Below, piece after piece: positions 3,936-33,640 of a stretch of DNA of 40,561 nucleotides. The stretch lies in UHGV virus genome UHGV-0150809. One strand, given 5' to 3'. The notes beneath the pieces were generated by a model. That model worked only from the letters and a program-made list of their open reading frames with translations. It ran no database searches and was not told the DNA's origin. Position numbers and translations under genes: made by a program. Within the stretch, counting starts at the first letter, position 1. The number at the start of each line of letters is the position of its first letter. The DNA is from a virus.

Positions 3936-4520
3936 TTATTGTTTATTTTTTTCGTTCTGGTTGATGACAAATTCAATGTAACTTTCGATCTTTGCTTTCT
4001 CGGTTTCGGGTAACAATGCGTAGCGCGAGCGGTCATAGTTGATGGTCGCAGGGTCGTGCGGGTGAATCAGTAATTCATAGCCGTGACGCCCGAATGCGGA
4101 TGCAACATTCTCCAGGGTGGAAATGGAAACGCTGACTTCATTGTTTAACAGGCGGCTGATTGTCACCTGGGCGACGCCGGATGCGCGGTGAAGTTTTCCT
4201 TGTGTTGAAAGGTCGCGGCTTTCGCTCATCCAGCGTTCCAGGTTGTGAGCCGCCAGCTGACCAATGTCGCTTGGTCCGACAGGCTGAAAACCCTCCTGAG
4301 AAAGCGAGCGATCGATATCAAGCCAGTTACGTGGTTTATTGGCGGCAGCTTCAATTTTTCGCGCAACCTGGTCGCCGATAACCTTCTTGCCAAGAGCCCA
4401 GCGGTTTACCAGATTTGCCTGAGTTCCAAGTTTTTCTGCCATCCGCGTCTGAACACCATTGAATTCACGGTCGATCAAGTCGTTGAGATTTTGCCTGCGG
4501 ACGTCCTGGATACTTTTCAT
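3936..4520 (-). CDS. Phage repressor (CI-like) with two tandem HTH domains and no S24/LexA-like autopeptidase domain
   Basis: 194 aa; N-terminal HTH (GVQTRMAEKLGTQANLVNRWALGKK) and second HTH (ASGVAQVTISRLLNNE); no Ala-Gly/Ser-Lys peptidase motifs; divergent from the cro-like gene with an operator cluster between. Confidence 0.7.
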   Translation of the reverse strand: MKSIQDVRRQNLNDLIDREFNGVQTRMAEKLGTQANLVNRWALGKKVIGDQVARKIEAAANKPRNWLDIDRSLSQEGFQPVGPSDIGQLAAHNLERWMSESRDLSTQGKLHRASGVAQVTISRLLNNEVSVSISTLENVASAFGRHGYELLIHPHDPATINYDRSRYALLPETEKAKIESYIEFVINQNEKNKQ

Positions 4521-27935: not shown

Positions 27936-30410
27936 ATGAGACAGGAATGTATACAAGCGGTCCAGCAGGCGGCGCAGCGCACGTTAACGGCGCGAGAAAT
28001 ACAGAACATTGAAGACCGCATTTATCGAAATATGCGCTCCATTGCTCGTGATGATCCGATGTCGTGGCGACAACTTTCCGAATCAGAACGGTTGTATCGT
28101 GCAGCACAATTGGCATCTGAAGAATTACAGCGAGAAGCGGCATTAAAGAAACGTCGTGTGGCTCTCACTATAGCCGCACGTCAGAGATTGGATAAATTTA
28201 TCAATAGCTATCAAGGGGCTGATGGGAAACTTGGCGCTCTTAACCGTACTATTGCTTTTAATGCAGACGGTAAATCGAATTTCCTCTCTGTTGAATCCAG
28301 AACAAAAGCCACTCGTGATTATGCATTGAGTCAATTGCAGGAGGCATTTGAAGCAGTTGATCCTCGCTTTTTTGGCCTGTTTGAAGATGAAGCTGGCGTG
28401 CGTGACCTGGTATATGAAATGCGAGGGCAAAATACTGGCAATGCTAAAGCAAGAAAAGGTGCTAAGGCGTGGAGAGAAGTGACAGAGCTACTGCGCCGCC
28501 GGTTTAATGATGCTGGTGGGGACATTGGCTATCTCGAAAACTGGGGGATCCCTCAACATCATTCTATGGAAAAGGTTGGGGCGGTATCAAAGGATAAGTG
28601 GGTTAGCGATGTTATAGGTAAGCTGGATCGCAAATATTATACCCGAGTCGATGGACAACTGATGAACGATGCCGAGTTGTCTGCATTTCTTGGAGAGGCT
28701 TATAACACGATCGCTACTGGTGGGCTGAATAAGCTTACTGATACCGGAATGCGAATTTCCGGCGCACGTGCTAACCGGGGTAATGCATCACGACAGATAC
28801 ATTTCAAAGATGCAGATTCCTATCTGCAATATCAGCAACTTTATGGCGATCGCTCTCTATGGGAAATCATGGTCGGTCACCTGGAAGGTATCAGTAAAGA
28901 TATTGCACTGGTGGAAACATATGGCCCAAACCCCGATCATGTTTTCCGCTCTCTTCTTGATCAGGTGAAGGCAGAAACGGCAACAGCTAACCCGAGTAAA
29001 ACCGGTAAAGTCGAGCGGCTGGCGAACAACACAGAGAATCTGTACAACTTTATTTCCGGAAAGACACAGCCTGTAGCGAATCCGCACATCGCGCGCTGGT
29101 CTGACAATATCCGCAACTGGCTGGTTGCCAGCCGACTAGGATCCGCGTTGCTGTCATCGTTCTCTGATCTTGGAACCATGTATCTGTCTGCGAAGGTGAC
29201 CAACCTTCCAATGAACCAGTTATTCCGCAACCAGCTTGAAGCTATGGACCCAACGAACCGTACTGAGCTTGCGCGGGCGCGCCGCGCTGGTCTGGCGATG
29301 GAATCTCTACTTGGCAGTGTTAACCGCTGGGCAATGGATAATATGGGGCCGTCTGTGTCTCGTTGGGCGGCAACGGCGGTAATGCGTGCCAGTGGGCTTA
29401 CAGCATGGTCAGATGCGCACAAGCGCGCCTATGGCGTAACAATGATGGGAAGCCTGGGAGAGGTAGTGTCACGGACACCAGACCTTCGTAGCCTCGATGA
29501 CTCTGATTTTCGTATCCTGAAAAGCAAAGGGATTACTGAAACAGACTGGAGCGTATGGAAGCTGGCGCAACAGGAGGACTGGGGGAACGGCAATAATACG
29601 ATGCTGACACCGGAAAGCATTATGCGTATCCCTGATTCAGCAGTTAAACATCTTGGTGAGCCTGAACGCGTGAAATTTGAGGCAATGCGTAAACTTCTCG
29701 GTGCCGTAACTGAAGAAGTTGATATGGCTGTTATTACACCGGGAGCACGTGAGCAACTGATAACCGGTTCTGGTATTCAGCGTGGAACATGGAAAGGTGA
29801 ATTAACGAGAAGTGTTTTCCTGTTTAAATCGTTCCCTATCTCGGTAGTTATGCGTCACTGGTCACGCGCTATGGGTATGCCGTCTGCTGGTGGGCGTGCG
29901 GCATATATTGCGACGTTTATTGCCAGTACGACCATTCTTGGCGCTTTGTCGCAGCAACTTAACGACCTTGCGTCTGGTCGTAATCCTCGCGAGATGACAG
30001 GAGAAGATGCTGCTAAATTTTGGCTTGGTGCTCTACTGAAAGGTGGTGGTCTTGGCCTTTACGGTGACTTTTTATTGTCAGATCACACTAGGTACGGAAG
30101 CGGCGCGCTGGCGTCGATGCTTGGCCCGGTAGCTGGTCTGGTTGATGACGTAGTGAAGATTGCTCAGGGCATACCGTTAAATGCTGTGGAAGGGAAGAGT
30201 GAGCAGACTGGTGGTGATCTGGTGAAGCTGGGGAAAGGTTTGATGCCAGGTGCGAATCTCTGGTACTTAAAGGCGGCTCTCGATCACATGATCTTTAACC
30301 AGATGCAGGAGTATTTTTCACCAGGCTATTTGCGTAAAATGGAGCAACGTTCGAAGAAAGAGTTTAACCAGACATACTGGTGGCGACCACAGGATGTCAC
30401 TCCGCAATAA
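27936..30410 (+). CDS. Internal core/ejection protein (gp16-like)
   Basis: 824 aa, last large gene of the structural block; assigned by order and size. Confidence 0.5.
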   Translation: MRQECIQAVQQAAQRTLTAREIQNIEDRIYRNMRSIARDDPMSWRQLSESERLYRAAQLASEELQREAALKKRRVALTIAARQRLDKFINSYQGADGKLGALNRTIAFNADGKSNFLSVESRTKATRDYALSQLQEAFEAVDPRFFGLFEDEAGVRDLVYEMRGQNTGNAKARKGAKAWREVTELLRRRFNDAGGDIGYLENWGIPQHHSMEKVGAVSKDKWVSDVIGKLDRKYYTRVDGQLMNDAELSAFLGEAYNTIATGGLNKLTDTGMRISGARANRGNASRQIHFKDADSYLQYQQLYGDRSLWEIMVGHLEGISKDIALVETYGPNPDHVFRSLLDQVKAETATANPSKTGKVERLANNTENLYNFISGKTQPVANPHIARWSDNIRNWLVASRLGSALLSSFSDLGTMYLSAKVTNLPMNQLFRNQLEAMDPTNRTELARARRAGLAMESLLGSVNRWAMDNMGPSVSRWAATAVMRASGLTAWSDAHKRAYGVTMMGSLGEVVSRTPDLRSLDDSDFRILKSKGITETDWSVWKLAQQEDWGNGNNTMLTPESIMRIPDSAVKHLGEPERVKFEAMRKLLGAVTEEVDMAVITPGAREQLITGSGIQRGTWKGELTRSVFLFKSFPISVVMRHWSRAMGMPSAGGRAAYIATFIASTTILGALSQQLNDLASGRNPREMTGEDAAKFWLGALLKGGGLGLYGDFLLSDHTRYGSGALASMLGPVAGLVDDVVKIAQGIPLNAVEGKSEQTGGDLVKLGKGLMPGANLWYLKAALDHMIFNQMQEYFSPGYLRKMEQRSKKEFNQTYWWRPQDVTPQ

Positions 30411-30419
30411 GGATGAGAA

Positions 30420-30560
30420 ATGATTGCTTTTATTCTTGTTGTGTTTGCGCTTGTTGCACTTGGCGTTATGAACCGTAAATGTATCATTGACGATGGCGAA
30501 TTTGCTGTTGCAGTTATTTTGATATTATCTGGTGTAGCAGGGTACATAGGCTTGTCATAA
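30420..30560 (+). CDS. Small hydrophobic protein (46 aa; not in ORF track)
   Basis: Hand-translated MIAFILVVFALVALGVMNRKCIIDDGEFAVAVILILSGVAGYIGLS; AAGGATGAG RBS; two predicted transmembrane helices. Confidence 0.3.
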   Translation: MIAFILVVFALVALGVMNRKCIIDDGEFAVAVILILSGVAGYIGLS

Positions 30561-30567
30561 CGTGAGC

Positions 30568-30604
30568 GTGACATGTCACAGGCCGCTTTCGCGGCCTTGT
30601 TTTT
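30568..30604 (+). terminator. GTGACATGTCAC palindrome copy 3 (30568-30579) followed by a rho-independent terminator (GGCCGC-tttc-GCGGCC plus T-run) ending the structural operon
   Basis: Read directly from sequence. Confidence 0.6.
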
Positions 30605-30665
30605 AACGAATGCCACCGCCGCCCGGGCGGGAATCCGCAGACACAAAAAAGCCCGCAACGCGGGC

Positions 30666-31211
30666 TTATTCCTTCCATTTATCAGAAAAAAGATCTTCTT
30701 CTAAAGGCATTGGTTCTGTTTTTGTTTTCTCAAAGAATTGATAACTGATAGTGATTGCTGCCTCTTTAAACTCTTCTTGCTCAGTTATGTTGTGGGCATC
30801 TGCGTCAACAAAAAACATAACCAGCGCATCACGATTGTGATTTACCGAATAAACTAAAAAGCAATCACTTGTTGGTATGCATTTTACTTGCACAGACGCT
30901 ATATTTTTCCATGCATCCCAAGATGATTTTTTACCAGTGTGTTTTTTATCACTATCTTCTGGAATATAGTCTTGGTTATCGACATGAGTATGCCTGACAT
31001 TTAGTTTAAGCATTTCTGTCGGACGAGCAAATGCAGCATCTTTACCAAGAGATGGATGGTATCCCGTTTTCCAATACTGGGTAAAGGCATCAGATACTTT
31101 CTTCAGCTCAAGATCAGATGCACAAAGGGCCGAGAAATTTTGCGTATGCAATACTCGACCCTTATATCTGACAATTTGATTTTTATCATTCTGCGACGCA
31201 GACGAACTCAT
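30666..31211 (-). CDS. Hypothetical moron protein (181 aa), possible YafO-family toxin-like C-terminal region
   Basis: ORF track 30666..31238; preferred start MSSSASQ at 31211 after AAGGAAA; AT-rich; the pattern LKLNVRHTHV...TSDCFLVY...ADAHN parallels a recalled YafO pattern (RVAHIHL...LVY...PHK); tentative. Confidence 0.45.
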   Translation of the reverse strand: MSSSASQNDKNQIVRYKGRVLHTQNFSALCASDLELKKVSDAFTQYWKTGYHPSLGKDAAFARPTEMLKLNVRHTHVDNQDYIPEDSDKKHTGKKSSWDAWKNIASVQVKCIPTSDCFLVYSVNHNRDALVMFFVDADAHNITEQEEFKEAAITISYQFFEKTKTEPMPLEEDLFSDKWKE

Positions 31212-31365
31212 AATTTTCCTTATTGTTACGAGAATCAAAGAAAGCGCGGGATACGCGACTTGCGTGATCTTTTGTCATAGTAACTTTTACGCACTCTACG
31301 CTTCCATTGAAAGAACGTCTTGCGGCAGCTTGCGCTCTACGCATCTGCAATTTTTCGTTTCGCAT
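31186..31365 (-). CDS. Small basic 59-aa ORF upstream of and overlapping the 181-aa moron gene (not in ORF track)
   Basis: Hand-translated MRNEKLQMRRAQAAARRSFNGSVECVKVTMTKDHASRVSRAFFDSRNNKENYEFVCVAE; GAGGTAA RBS 6 nt upstream of the ATG; overlaps the downstream start by 26 nt. Confidence 0.3.
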   Translation of the reverse strand: MRNEKLQMRRAQAAARRSFNGSVECVKVTMTKDHASRVSRAFFDSRNNKENYEFVCVAE

Positions 31366-31425
31366 GACATTACCTCATATCTCATAAGTTCATTACACGG
31401 ATTAATAAAAATGAAACCAATCCGT

Positions 31426-31467
31426 TTACCCTTGAGGTAATAGTACGCTATTCACCAACAGTCTGCA
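31426..31467 (-). promoter_or_regulatory. Candidate sigma70 promoter (-35 TTGCAG, 17-bp spacer, -10 TACTAT on the minus strand) with operator TTACCCTTGAGGTAA (31426-31440) just downstream of the -10
   Basis: Hexamers and spacing read on the reverse complement; operator is a perfect copy of the recurring palindrome. Confidence 0.4.
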
Positions 31468-31513
31468 ATCTGTACAGAATTATTTAAAGGCACATCCATG
31501 TGCCGCCGTTCTG

Positions 31514-32200
31514 TCAGAAGAATCCTGCTTTGTCGTTGATGTACTCCGCGTGCGTCTGGATATCACGCAGGCATTTGCTCACACCGACGATGTAGCAGAA
31601 CATGGTGGTCAGCTCTGCCGCCGCGCCCGATACGTCGTGCCCGTCTTCCTGTAACTGGTTCAGCAGATTCATCAGCAGTGAGTTCTCCGTCAGGCCGAGA
31701 ACACCAGACGGCGAGTGAATCAGGCTGCGGTAGCCGGGCTTCAGCGGGGCACTGTAGGTTTTGTTCTCTATCTTCATCGCCTGCATTACTGCTGACGCCG
31801 TGGCGTTGGCTACCTGGTCGGCAACCATCTTTATGCGTTCTTCCTGCGGGAGCGAGTTTTTAATGTAACTTCCGGTGCGGCGGATCTGAGGAAGAACCTC
31901 ACCTGTAACCCATTTACGAAAGCGGTAGGGGATAGTGCCTGGTGTCACCGCATCGCGGCAGCGGAGGATCAGTGTGTAGAGGCCTGACTCGTTGATAATA
32001 TTGGTTTCGCCTTGACGGCCTAAGTTAAATTTAGCCCTTTCATCATCATCAAGAGATTTTATTGACATAGTGGGGTTTGTCAGTTGAAGAGCTTTAATAA
32101 CGTCTTTGGCAACAAACCAAGGATTTCCATCAATAACAATGGCTCGAATGGTTGCCTCTGATTCAAAATGAAAAACAGATGGGGTTACGTTAGCAGTCAT
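31514..32200 (-). CDS. Antirepressor, Bro-N domain family
   Basis: Preferred start MTANVTPSVFHFESE at 32200 after AAAGGTGA; N-terminal ATIRAIVIDGNPWFVAKDVIKAL matches the Bro-N/KilA-N antirepressor signature; ORF track extension to 32353 lacks an RBS and is likely leader. Confidence 0.7.
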   Translation of the reverse strand: MTANVTPSVFHFESEATIRAIVIDGNPWFVAKDVIKALQLTNPTMSIKSLDDDERAKFNLGRQGETNIINESGLYTLILRCRDAVTPGTIPYRFRKWVTGEVLPQIRRTGSYIKNSLPQEERIKMVADQVANATASAVMQAMKIENKTYSAPLKPGYRSLIHSPSGVLGLTENSLLMNLLNQLQEDGHDVSGAAAELTTMFCYIVGVSKCLRDIQTHAEYINDKAGFF

Positions 32201-32594: not shown

Positions 32595-33323
32595 ATGGAA
32601 GTTTTCTGGATAGTTGTTGGTGTGGTTGCGGTGATTATTTACGTTATCAACCAGAACAAGACTAAGATCTCTGATCGTACGGTCGTTAATCATAACAAAA
32701 CGATAAAGACCGAAGATGGGGAGATAACGATTAATCGTACACAGGTGATAGAACACACCTCTACTCAGTTTCAAAAAACTGGAGGTAATGCGCCTAATAT
32801 TTCCGCACCTCCTGCTTATGATAGTGCGGTAATCCAGACATATTATAAACAGCAGGAGTTAGCAAAAGAGAGGCAACTGATTCAGCCAAAGCCGTTTACA
32901 GCTGAGCTTCCACCTGGAGTGTCAACGCGTCCGGCATATCATGGAAGATTCCCTGGTGATGACATATCGTCTCAGTCATCTAAAAAAGCACCTCAGGCAG
33001 TATCAGAGCCAGCAAGAATACCTTCTGCATCGCCGCCAAAAGAAGAATCAGCTAACAGAGTTTCAAGTGGTAGCAAGCAGTGCTTGCGATGCAGAATAAA
33101 CCTTCCATATGAAAAATTCAGGAAATCGTCAAAAAATCCAGATGGATTGACTAAGTGGTGTGCAAGGTGTCTCGATGGCCCAAAGAATACACGCCATATG
33201 AAGTGGTGCCCAATTTGTAATGTCCGCAGAAAACGAACCAGCTTTTACCCTAATAATCAAAATGCGGACGGCTTAATGGCATGGTGCAAAACGTGCTGGG
33301 ATGAGCACAAAGCGAAACGATAG
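32595..33323 (+). CDS. Membrane-anchored protein with tandem C-terminal zinc ribbons
   Basis: 242 aa; N-terminal TM helix (VFWIVVGVVAVIIYVI), Pro/Ser-rich linker, then two repeats of C-x2-C ... DGL-x2-WC-x2-C (CLRCRINLPYEKFRKSSKNPDGLTKWCARC; CPICNVRRKRTSFYPNNQNADGLMAWCKTC). Confidence 0.5.
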   Translation: MEVFWIVVGVVAVIIYVINQNKTKISDRTVVNHNKTIKTEDGEITINRTQVIEHTSTQFQKTGGNAPNISAPPAYDSAVIQTYYKQQELAKERQLIQPKPFTAELPPGVSTRPAYHGRFPGDDISSQSSKKAPQAVSEPARIPSASPPKEESANRVSSGSKQCLRCRINLPYEKFRKSSKNPDGLTKWCARCLDGPKNTRHMKWCPICNVRRKRTSFYPNNQNADGLMAWCKTCWDEHKAKR

Positions 33324-33345: not shown

Positions 33346-33603
33346 TTACCGGGTTTGTTTTCGTAATTGTTCGGCACAATAGTCGAGATGTGTTTGCAGA
33401 TCCTGCATAGACATCTGTGAGCTGGTGACGTAGTTAATCAGTGCAGTCAGTTCGGCAAGTGGGCCATCGACATTAAATCCATCCTTATCGAGATCCCGGA
33501 GTAATTTCATCAAGTGCGATCCCTCCACCAGTGACCTGACGCCTCCCGGCGTGTGAATCCTTTCGGTAAATCCGTCTTCCAGTGGATAGTGATACTGCTG
33601 CAT
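33346..33603 (-). CDS. Short antirepressor-like protein, paralog of the C-terminal domain of the Bro-N antirepressor; candidate SOS-induced antirepressor
   Basis: Preferred start MQQYHY at 33603 after GGAGAAG; RIHTPGGVRSLVEGSHLMKLLRDLDKDGFNVDGPLAELTALINYV aligns by eye with SLIHSPSGVLGLTENSLLMNLLNQLQEDGHDVSGAAAELTTMFCYI of the 31514-32200 product; LexA box 22 bp upstream. Confidence 0.55.
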   Translation of the reverse strand: MQQYHYPLEDGFTERIHTPGGVRSLVEGSHLMKLLRDLDKDGFNVDGPLAELTALINYVTSSQMSMQDLQTHLDYCAEQLRKQTR

Positions 33604-33624: not shown

Positions 33625-33640
33625 CTGTATAAATATACAG
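33625..33640. promoter_or_regulatory. LexA (SOS) box CTGTATAAATATACAG
   Basis: Perfect CTGT-N8-ACAG with AT-rich spacer, overlapping a TATATT -10-like hexamer for the leftward gene starting at 33603. Confidence 0.6.

What the first reader, a model, noticed from the sequence alone, without database searches (positions are those of the whole stretch)
30666..31467. AT-rich two-gene moron under a promoter overlapped by the operator motif; downstream gene possibly YafO-toxin-like
Between the last structural gene and the antirepressor lies a leftward unit: a near-consensus promoter (-35 TTGCAG, 17 bp, -10 TACTAT) whose start region is covered by operator copy 31426-31440; a 59-aa Arg-rich ORF (31186-31365, absent from the ORF track); and an overlapping 181-aa ORF. 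The region is visibly AT-richer than the flanking phage genes, suggesting foreign origin. The 181-aa product shows a pattern I recall from YafO-family mRNA interferase toxins, but this is from memory. If the pair is a toxin-antitoxin or abortive-infection-like module under repressor control, it would be a cargo system switched with the lysogenic state.
Basis: partly seen in the sequence, partly recalled or inferred. Interest (0 to 1): 0.68.

Follow-up and report, generated by a model that had tools for sequence, protein, structure and literature searches.

The report
Repressor-gated YafO-type toxin pair in prophage
An 888-bp insert in an epsilon15/phiV10-like E. coli prophage carries a YafO-family (RelE-fold) mRNA-cutting toxin gene preceded by a small, undescribed partner gene, behind a promoter overlapped by the phage's own operator; the toxin is already named in public annotation, so this is a tidy but fairly ordinary toxin-antitoxin-like cargo.

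Summary
On the minus strand, in order: promoter TTGCAG-17-TACTAT (31468-31440); operator TTACCCTTGAGGTAA (31426-31440) over the -10 and start site; a 59-aa ORF; a 181-aa ORF overlapping it by 26 nt; an intrinsic terminator. GC is 39% against 48% for the window. The promoter is not near-consensus (7 of 12), but TTGnnn-17/18-nAnnAT fused to the operator recurs in 10 of 11 diverged copies.

The 59-aa ORF is a real gene: it sits upstream of the toxin in all 48 loci, with dN/dS about 0.27. It belongs to an orphan family unrelated to YafN.

The operator is the phage's own, with 15 copies against 0.6 expected, including sites flanking the two-HTH repressor gene. In phiv142-3 the identical promoter and an operator drive different cargo, and EC.W1-9 has a different promoter-like sequence and an operator before yet another cargo. 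The pair therefore sits in a repressor-gated cargo slot and is probably silent or low in lysogens.

Toxicity, neutralisation and repression are untested. Verdict: a new member of a known kind, of modest interest.

The parts
30625..31512 (-). 888-bp insertion relative to phage phiV10. It holds the whole cargo unit, between the late-operon terminator and the stop codon of the antirepressor gene.
   Evidence: Pairwise alignment: window 30500-30624 and 31513-31650 are contiguous in phiV10 at 98% and 95% identity. The phiV10 annotation shows no such genes.
31463..31468 (-). -35 hexamer TTGCAG (3 of 6 to the consensus; TTG kept).
   Evidence: Sequence read. TTGnnn at 17/18-nt spacing is kept in 10 of 11 diverged copies. 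The identical promoter drives other cargo in phiv142-3.
31440..31445 (-). -10 hexamer TACTAT (4 of 6; TAATAT in most relatives). Its last T is the first T of the operator.
   Evidence: The same fused -10/operator geometry occurs at the putative PL (site 3802) and P_ant (site 32467).
31426..31440 (.). Operator, a perfect dyad TTACC-N5-GGTAA, covering about -8 to +8 of the promoter.
   Evidence: 15 sites against 0.63 expected. The motif is also present in relatives that lack the cassette and is conserved upstream of the cassette in Uetakevirus-like loci.
31372..31376 (-). Shine-Dalgarno GAGGT of the small ORF.
   Evidence: Sequence. The block ATGAGGTnATGTCATG is conserved across copies.
31186..31365 (-). 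59-aa basic protein, the putative antitoxin, from an orphan family (phrog_6685).
   Evidence: Present upstream of and overlapping the toxin gene in all 48 loci. Median dN/dS is 0.27. The family has 36 members with no Pfam or PDB relative. It is not annotated in the RefSeq genome and is 'hypothetical' in TL-2011b.
31216..31221 (-). Shine-Dalgarno AAGGAA of the toxin ORF, lying inside the small ORF (inferred translational coupling).
   Evidence: Sequence. An overlap of 20-26 nt is kept in the relatives.
30666..31211 (-). 181-aa long-form YafO-family toxin with the RelE/ParE fold, a predicted mRNA endoribonuclease.
30640..30667 (-). Intrinsic terminator, stem GCCCGC/GCGGGC followed by a U run.
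   Evidence: Terminator scan and RNA fold, -16.7 kcal/mol. Nucleotide conservation of the cassette ends here.
31489..31504 (-). Hairpin GGCACAT-GG-ATGTGCC just after the antirepressor stop codon. It may be a weak terminator separating ant from the cargo promoter (inferred).
   Evidence: RNA fold. It is conserved in phiv142-3 and EC.W1-9. The terminator scan did not call it.

Best explanation
The unit is a two-gene, type II toxin-antitoxin-like cassette sitting in a variable cargo slot of an epsilon15/phiV10-like (Uetakevirus) prophage.

The 181-aa protein is a long-form member of the YafO family, with the RelE/ParE fold. It is predicted to stop translation by cutting mRNA, as E. coli YafO does. 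The 59-aa basic protein encoded just upstream, and translationally coupled to it, is predicted to bind and neutralise the toxin. It belongs to no described antitoxin family.

Both genes are transcribed leftward from a moderate sigma-70 promoter and end at an intrinsic terminator. The promoter's -10 and start site lie inside a copy of the phage-wide operator TTACCN5GGTAA. The phage's two-HTH repressor is inferred to bind this operator and keep the pair off or low in the stable lysogen. The pair would then be released together with the early genes and the antirepressor when the repressor is inactivated, or on fresh infection.

Shown here: anatomy, homology, fold, conservation, and the distribution of the operator. 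Inferred: toxicity, neutralisation by the small protein, repressor binding, and timing of expression.
For: - Gene order: antitoxin-then-toxin is the order reported for PF_YafO (PMC11980606).
- Partner gene: present in 48 of 48 loci, overlapping the toxin start. It is under purifying selection and evolves faster than the toxin, with dN/dS 0.27 against 0.08.
- Cassette nature: an 888-bp indel relative to phiV10. It is carried by 61 of the 537 E. coli genomes that match this region. GC is 39% against 48%. A related pair sits in the tail module of an unrelated siphovirus-like contig.
- Regulation: the operator is enriched 15 to 0.63 and flanks the two-HTH repressor gene. The same fused -10/operator geometry occurs at the putative PL and P_ant. 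The promoter-operator arrangement is kept in 10 of 11 diverged copies. The identical promoter and an operator precede other cargo in phiv142-3, and a different promoter-like sequence with an operator precedes other cargo in EC.W1-9, so the operator's binder is not encoded by the cassette.
Against: - There is no experimental evidence of toxicity, RNA cleavage, complex formation or repression.
- The Pfam score is barely above its cut-off, BLASTP against K-12 YafO finds nothing, and Foldseek matches are not significant.
- The small protein has no recognisable antitoxin or DNA-binding domain, and no complex could be modelled.
- The charge pattern is unusual for a type II pair: the toxin is slightly acidic (pI 6.0) and the partner basic (pI 9.9).
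- The cargo operator is a single site, whereas those at the repressor gene come in pairs. Repression may therefore be weak and the pair may be expressed in lysogens.
- The window's promoter matches the consensus at only 7 of 12 positions.
Confidence: 0.55

Rival explanations
1. The molecular module is the same, but it is expressed in the lysogen. The single operator represses only partly, a toxin-antitoxin complex is present in lysogens, and it serves as an abortive-infection/anti-phage device or a prophage-stabilising device, as a classical moron would.
For: Prophage cargo slots often carry defence genes (general knowledge). The slot is variable. The cargo operator is single while those at the repressor gene are paired. 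RelE-superfamily toxin-antitoxin modules have been tied to phage defence (PMC11980606).
Against: The operator covers the -10 and +1, the same geometry as at the putative early promoter PL and at P_ant. There is no PADLOC hit. No palindrome specific to the cassette, as expected for autoregulation, was seen.
Confidence: 0.22
2. A lytic-phase tool rather than a toxin-antitoxin system. The nuclease is made early after derepression to degrade host (or selected phage) mRNA, in a role like that of T4 RegB. The small protein acts as a timer, chaperone or specificity factor rather than as an addiction-type antitoxin.
For: The unit is wired to the same operator as the early promoters and the antirepressor. 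The long-form YafO relatives sampled all lie near phage genes: tailspike and antirepressor in L053/L054, NinB in L055, a tail module in L005. That T4 RegB has a RelE/YoeB-like structure is from memory and was not checked here.
Against: Gene order, overlap and relative evolutionary rates look like an ordinary antitoxin-toxin pair. The cassette is dispensable: it is absent from phiV10 and from most related prophages.
Confidence: 0.15
3. The 181-aa protein is a YafO-derived domain that no longer cuts RNA, for example a ribosome-binding or decoy protein, and the small ORF has an unrelated function.
For: The protein has a roughly 40-residue insertion and a conserved acidic C-terminal extension (PMPLEEDLFSDKW) that canonical YafO lacks. 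Its pI is acidic.
Against: The family-wide invariant and nearly invariant residues (G56, H76, S115, Y121, H140) are all kept. Purifying selection is strong, with dN/dS 0.08.
Confidence: 0.08

Closest known systems
E. coli K-12 YafN-YafO (dinB-yafN-yafO-yafP operon), a type II toxin-antitoxin system; toxin family Pfam PF13957
   Same: The toxin family is the same by profile comparison (99.8%) and by conserved motifs. The gene order is antitoxin then toxin, with close coupling. YafO is annotated as a ribosome-dependent mRNA interferase (PMC11980606). Both are, directly or indirectly, tied to the SOS response: yafNO lies in the LexA-controlled dinB operon (established knowledge), and here the link is inferred to run through a LexA-controlled antirepressor and the phage repressor.
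   Different: The toxin is 181 aa against 132 aa. It has an extra N-terminal segment, a roughly 40-residue insertion containing W98/W101, and a conserved C-terminal tail. Pairwise BLASTP finds no similarity. The partner is a 59-aa orphan protein, not a Phd/YefM-type YafN. The unit is phage-borne, and a phage operator replaces any evident autoregulation.
RelE/ParE superfamily toxins with solved structures (V. cholerae HigB2, M. tuberculosis HigB1, RelE, YoeB, YafQ)
   Different: Sequence identity is only 4-17%. Foldseek matches are not significant. In higBA the gene order is reversed, toxin first (PMC11980606).
Prophage genes harmful to the host that are kept silent by the prophage repressor (lambda kil under PL; Rac RacR with YdaS/YdaT; Qin DicA with DicB)
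   Same: A potentially toxic prophage gene sits behind a promoter occupied by the prophage's own repressor. RacR and YdaS/T are mentioned in the reference list quoted; the rest is established knowledge.
   Different: Those genes are not RelE-fold nucleases and have no dedicated co-transcribed neutraliser. Repression of the unit studied here is inferred, not shown.
Morons, or accessory-gene hotspots, of temperate phages
   Same: The unit is a discrete insertion with a promoter, a terminator and lower GC, and it is present in only some relatives. The same slot holds other cargo in other phages.
   Different: Classical morons are expressed from the repressed prophage. Here the promoter is overlapped by the phage operator, so expression in the lysogen is doubtful.

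Membership tests
YafO_toxin (Pfam PF13957) | Score at or above the Pfam gathering threshold | tested here: met
   25.9 bits against a cut-off of 25, E 1.1e-5. This is borderline. All 23 close homologues match at E below 0.01.
YafO_toxin (Pfam PF13957) | Profile-level homology to canonical YafO, including K-12 YafO | tested here: met
   hhalign of A3 against A7: probability 99.8%, E 7.2e-29, 135 aligned columns. The exhaustive profile search links the family continuously to 130-150-aa YafO proteins.
YafO_toxin (Pfam PF13957) | Family-wide conserved residues are kept (FG[KR]D, RP, HxH, TSD, Y, AH) | tested here: met
   G56 and H76 are invariant; F43, P64, S115, Y121 and H140 are conserved at 90% or more across 66-67 sequences, and all are present in the window protein. 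Which of them are catalytic is not known.
YafO_toxin (Pfam PF13957) | Inhibits growth by mRNA cleavage (endoribonuclease activity) | not testable with these tools
   This needs an expression/toxicity assay and RNA-end mapping.
RelE/ParE (BECR-fold) toxin superfamily | RelE-like alpha/beta fold | tested here: met
Type II toxin-antitoxin system | A small co-oriented partner gene adjacent to or overlapping the toxin gene, conserved together with it | tested here: met
   The partner is found in 48 of 48 loci, with an overlap of 20-26 nt in the close relatives and 8 nt in the distant siphovirus-like copy L005. The two genes diverge in parallel.
Type II toxin-antitoxin system | The partner protein binds and neutralises the toxin | not testable with these tools
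This needs AF-multimer, co-expression rescue or a pull-down.
Type II toxin-antitoxin system | The partner belongs to a known antitoxin family (for YafO: YafN, of the Phd/YefM type) | tested here: not met
   No Pfam hit below E 0.03. No NCBIfam hit. No PDB relative by profile search. The family consists of 36 unannotated proteins.
Type II toxin-antitoxin system | Autoregulation by the antitoxin binding its own operator | tested here: inconclusive
   The only dyad at the promoter is the phage-wide operator. It also occurs in phages without the cassette, and it is absent from the cassette copy in the siphovirus-like contig L005.
Moron (phage accessory transcription unit) | A discrete insertion, absent from close relatives, with its own promoter and terminator and a deviant composition | tested here: met
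   In phiv142-3 the identical promoter and an operator serve other cargo, so the promoter is not exclusive to this cassette.
Moron (phage accessory transcription unit) | Expressed from the repressed prophage | not testable with these tools
   The position of the operator over the -10 and +1 argues against it. Lysogen RNA-seq is needed.
Known anti-phage defence systems (PADLOC-DB) | A match to a defence-system protein model | tested here: not met
   Neither protein gave a hit at E up to 1.

The most novel reading that the evidence does not exclude
Uetakevirus-type prophages have a repressor-gated cargo slot next to the antirepressor gene. Swappable cassettes (the YafO pair here; other small genes in phiv142-3; a DUF2335 membrane-protein pair in EC.W1-9) are each placed behind a promoter fitted with the phage's own operator. 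A RelE-fold nuclease thereby becomes the last step of the cascade SOS, then LexA-controlled small antirepressor, then repressor inactivation. It would act as a phage-timed host shut-off or kill switch during induction, not as a lysogen-expressed toxin-antitoxin system, and it would be paired with a new family of neutralising proteins.
Probability: 0.2. Interest if true: 0.55.

Novelty: new member of a known kind. Interest (0 to 1): 0.3.

Why it matters
The unit adds a phage-borne, long-form branch to the small YafO family (about 1,000 sequences in Pfam according to PMC11980606) and pairs it with a partner protein that has no described relatives and is left unannotated in the RefSeq chromosome checked (strain 85.0412).

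If the inferred wiring is right, it would be a clear case of a toxin-antitoxin-type nuclease regulated by a prophage repressor rather than by its own antitoxin. That would tie toxin release to prophage induction.

It is cheap to test, with a toxicity and rescue assay, a repressor gel shift, and RNA-seq with and without mitomycin C. It would also inform how such modules in prophages are annotated. It does not change any general picture: prophage-borne toxin-antitoxin cargo and repressor-silenced toxic prophage genes are both well known.

Tried and rejected
- BLASTP of the 181-aa protein against K-12 YafO found no similarity. Homology is visible only at profile level.
- phmmer against PDB sequences gave nothing.
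- The first AF2 model, built from 23 close homologues, was poor (pLDDT 62). It was replaced by a model built on a 66-sequence alignment.
- The afdb50 fold library was unavailable.
- NCBIfam and PADLOC gave no hits.
- The genome-contig scan returned no confirmed locus. The viral-contig scan gave 44 loci.
- The weak DUF6955 and DUF7890 hits of the 59-aa protein (E 0.04-0.2), and the RuvB-like hits of its profile in the PDB (E above 1), were dismissed as chance.
- Rfam found no RNA family in the unit.
- A LexA box at the cargo promoter was looked for and not found. The only perfect intergenic box lies elsewhere, at 33625-33640.
- The idea that the operator is the cassette's own autoregulatory site was rejected. 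The motif occurs 15 times across the phage and also in phages without the cassette.
- The epsilon15 genome paper (Kropinski 2007), which I recall describing a similar dyad motif, could not be read. That recollection is unverified.

Full report
**Context.** The window is an epsilon15/phiV10-like (Uetakevirus) prophage of E. coli. The region 30400-31700 is 100% identical to the chromosomes of strains 85.0412 and ECE170 and 98% identical to phage TL-2011b. To the left lie an 824-aa protein, whose phiV10 counterpart is annotated as a virion structural protein, and a 46-aa membrane protein. To the right lie a Bro-N antirepressor, an 85-aa ORF and the tailspike gene.

**Observation.** Reading the minus strand, the unit consists of:
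- -35 TTGCAG (31468-31463), a 17-nt spacer, and -10 TACTAT (31445-31440);
- the perfect dyad TTACCCTTGAGGTAA (31426-31440), whose first T is the last T of the -10, so that it spans about -8 to +8;
- GAGGT and then the ATG of a 59-aa ORF (31365-31186);
- AAGGAA and then the ATG of a 181-aa ORF (31211-30666), overlapping the small ORF by 26 nt;
- a GC-rich hairpin followed by a U run (30667-30640).

The dyad motif occurs 15 times in the window against 0.63 expected. GC is 39.4% against 48.4%, the 4th percentile of equally long windows. Relative to phiV10 the unit is a clean 888-bp insertion, 30625-31512.

However, TTGnnn, a 17/18-nt spacer and nAnnAT (mostly TAATAT) fused to the operator are kept in 10 of 11 diverged copies whose spacers differ. 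That is better evidence for a promoter than a consensus match.

**The 181-aa protein.**
- Pfam YafO_toxin scores 25.9 bits, just above the cut-off of 25. All 23 close homologues also hit it.
- The protein belongs to phrog_1651, of unknown function.
- Its close relatives (45-81% identity) are confined to Enterobacterales.
- An exhaustive profile search found 70 cluster representatives, grading from 165-200-aa 'long' forms to 130-150-aa canonical YafO proteins. Forty of the 67 aligned sequences hit PF13957, the best at E 1e-39.
- A profile-profile comparison between the close family and canonical YafO, including the K-12 protein, gives 99.8% probability and E 7e-29, although pairwise BLASTP sees nothing.
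- The family motifs are all kept: F-x2-[YW], FG[KR]D, RP, (R)HxH, TSD, Y and AH.

The protein is therefore a genuine but divergent long-form YafO-family member with the RelE/ParE fold. It carries a roughly 40-residue insertion and a conserved acidic C-terminal tail. RefSeq/PGAP already labels it 'type II toxin-antitoxin system YafO family toxin', so this identification is not new.

**The 59-aa ORF.** It is left unannotated in the RefSeq chromosome and is 'hypothetical' in TL-2011b. It is nevertheless a real gene:
- A 55-63-aa ORF ends inside the start of the toxin gene in all 48 loci examined.
- It diverges in parallel with the toxin.
- Outside the overlap its median dN/dS is 0.27, against 0.08 for the toxin.

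It has no Pfam, NCBIfam or PDB relative. A profile search of 5.8 billion proteins returns only 36 unannotated members of the same cassette. It is not a Phd/YefM-type YafN.

Its role as an antitoxin is inferred from four things: its position (antitoxin then toxin is the order given for PF_YafO in PMC11980606), the translational coupling, the co-inheritance, and the faster evolution. Other long-form YafO genes have different upstream partners: 62-aa and 65-aa proteins in L053, and a 133-aa protein in L055. Such partner swapping is familiar from other type II systems (general knowledge, not checked here).

**Regulation.**
- The operator motif sits in pairs on both sides of a 194-aa protein with two HTH domains and no peptidase domain (3936-4520). 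ZX5 ORF21, which behaved as a repressor when overexpressed, is reported to be identical in sequence to phiV10 ORF40 (PMC9782041). That the window's 194-aa protein corresponds to these is inferred from its position and HTH domains; no direct comparison was made.
- The motif also lies in most other intergenic regions.
- At the putative PL (site 3802: TTGACA-17-AATCAT) and P_ant (site 32467: TTGATT-18-TATCAT), the -10 is fused to the operator exactly as at the cargo promoter.
- The motif is present in relatives that lack the cassette (phiV10, phiv142-3, EC.W1-9). It is absent from the copy of the cassette found in the tail module of a siphovirus-like contig (L005). The protein that binds it is therefore encoded by the phage, not by the cassette.
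- In phiv142-3 the identical promoter and an operator precede a different small gene. In EC.W1-9 another promoter and operator precede a different overlapping gene pair.

The site is therefore a variable cargo slot whose promoter is gated by the phage operator. The YafO cassette fills it in 61 of the 537 E. coli genomes that match this region.

An operator over the -10 and +1 predicts repression in the lysogen and release on derepression. This is inference: the cargo operator is single, so repression could be leaky.

**Likely mechanism.** A YafO-type mRNA endonuclease and its small neutralising partner are co-transcribed from the slot promoter. Transcription would be low in the lysogen and would rise when the repressor is inactivated. 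The physiological purpose is open. It could be host shut-off or a kill switch during induction, or defence or stabilisation from basal expression. I put 0.55 on the repressor-gated toxin-antitoxin-like reading, 0.22 on a lysogen-expressed toxin-antitoxin or defence role, 0.15 on a lytic-phase nuclease role, and 0.08 on a non-catalytic derivative.

**Verdict.** The toxin family is known and already annotated, and both prophage toxin-antitoxin cargo and repressor-silenced toxic prophage genes are familiar. The new elements are the orphan partner family, the long-form phage-associated YafO branch, and the operator-gated slot. I rate it a new member of a known kind, with interest about 0.3.

Noticed in passing
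window 33625-33640 and 33346-33603 (-): A perfect LexA-box-like dyad, CTGTATAAATATACAG, lies in the 17-nt spacer between a TTGATA -35 and the -10 region, about 20 nt upstream of an 85-aa ORF. That ORF is 40% identical (E 1e-15) to the C-terminal domain of the Bro-N antirepressor. It is probably an SOS-controlled small antirepressor, the likely trigger of induction, since the repressor has no peptidase domain.
   Followed up: partly
window 3802, 3864, 4576, 4624, 4961, 6907, 6969, 11109, 11127, 14320, 31426, 32467, 32560, 33680, 36909: There are 15 copies of (A)TTACC-N5-GGTAA(T) against 0.63 expected, nearly all intergenic. They come in pairs on both sides of the two-HTH repressor gene (3936-4520) and also lie in front of the small terminase gene and other late-region genes. 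One repressor may therefore gate most transcription units directly. The genome-wide spread recalls mycobacteriophage stoperators, but these sites are palindromic.
   Followed up: partly
L059 (phiv142-3) 1500-2520; L060 (EC.W1-9) 1500-2700: The same slot between the last structural genes and the antirepressor holds other cargo: three small ORFs in phiv142-3, and in EC.W1-9 an overlapping 108-aa/167-aa pair (the 167-aa protein is a DUF2335 predicted membrane protein) plus a 53-aa ORF. In each case the cargo lies behind a promoter carrying the phage operator. In phiv142-3 the promoter is identical to the one in the window.
   Followed up: partly
window 32595-33323 (+): A 242-aa ORF (phrog_6762) has C-terminal cysteine-rich repeats that match Stc1 and endonuclease VII/HNH-like zinc modules. 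An operator copy (32560) lies directly upstream. TL-2011b has only a 'similar to hypothetical protein' misc_feature here.
   Followed up: no
L053/L054 2648-3603; L055 316-1216; L005 4817-5537: More distant long-form YafO genes also lie near phage genes: a tailspike/antirepressor region, a NinB neighbourhood, and a siphovirus tail module. Their upstream partners are unrelated to the 59-aa protein: a basic 62-aa plus an acidic 65-aa protein, a 133-aa protein, and a 63-aa protein.
   Followed up: partly
window 31186-31365 vs 30666-31211: Synonymous divergence of the small ORF (dS about 0.4-1.3) is two to four times lower than that of the toxin gene (about 1.5-2.8) in the same pairs of loci. This may reflect a nucleotide-level constraint on the 5' part of the mRNA, recombination, or small-sample noise.
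   Followed up: no
window 30617-30626 and 31503-31512: Both junctions of the 888-bp insertion relative to phiV10 carry the short repeat GCCGCC. This microhomology could have mediated the gain or loss of the slot.
   Followed up: no
window 31366-31381 (-): The block ATGAGGT(A/G)ATGTCATG in front of the small ORF is conserved. It contains a two-codon mini-ORF (ATG AGG TAA/TGA) that overlaps the Shine-Dalgarno sequence. This is probably incidental.
   Followed up: no
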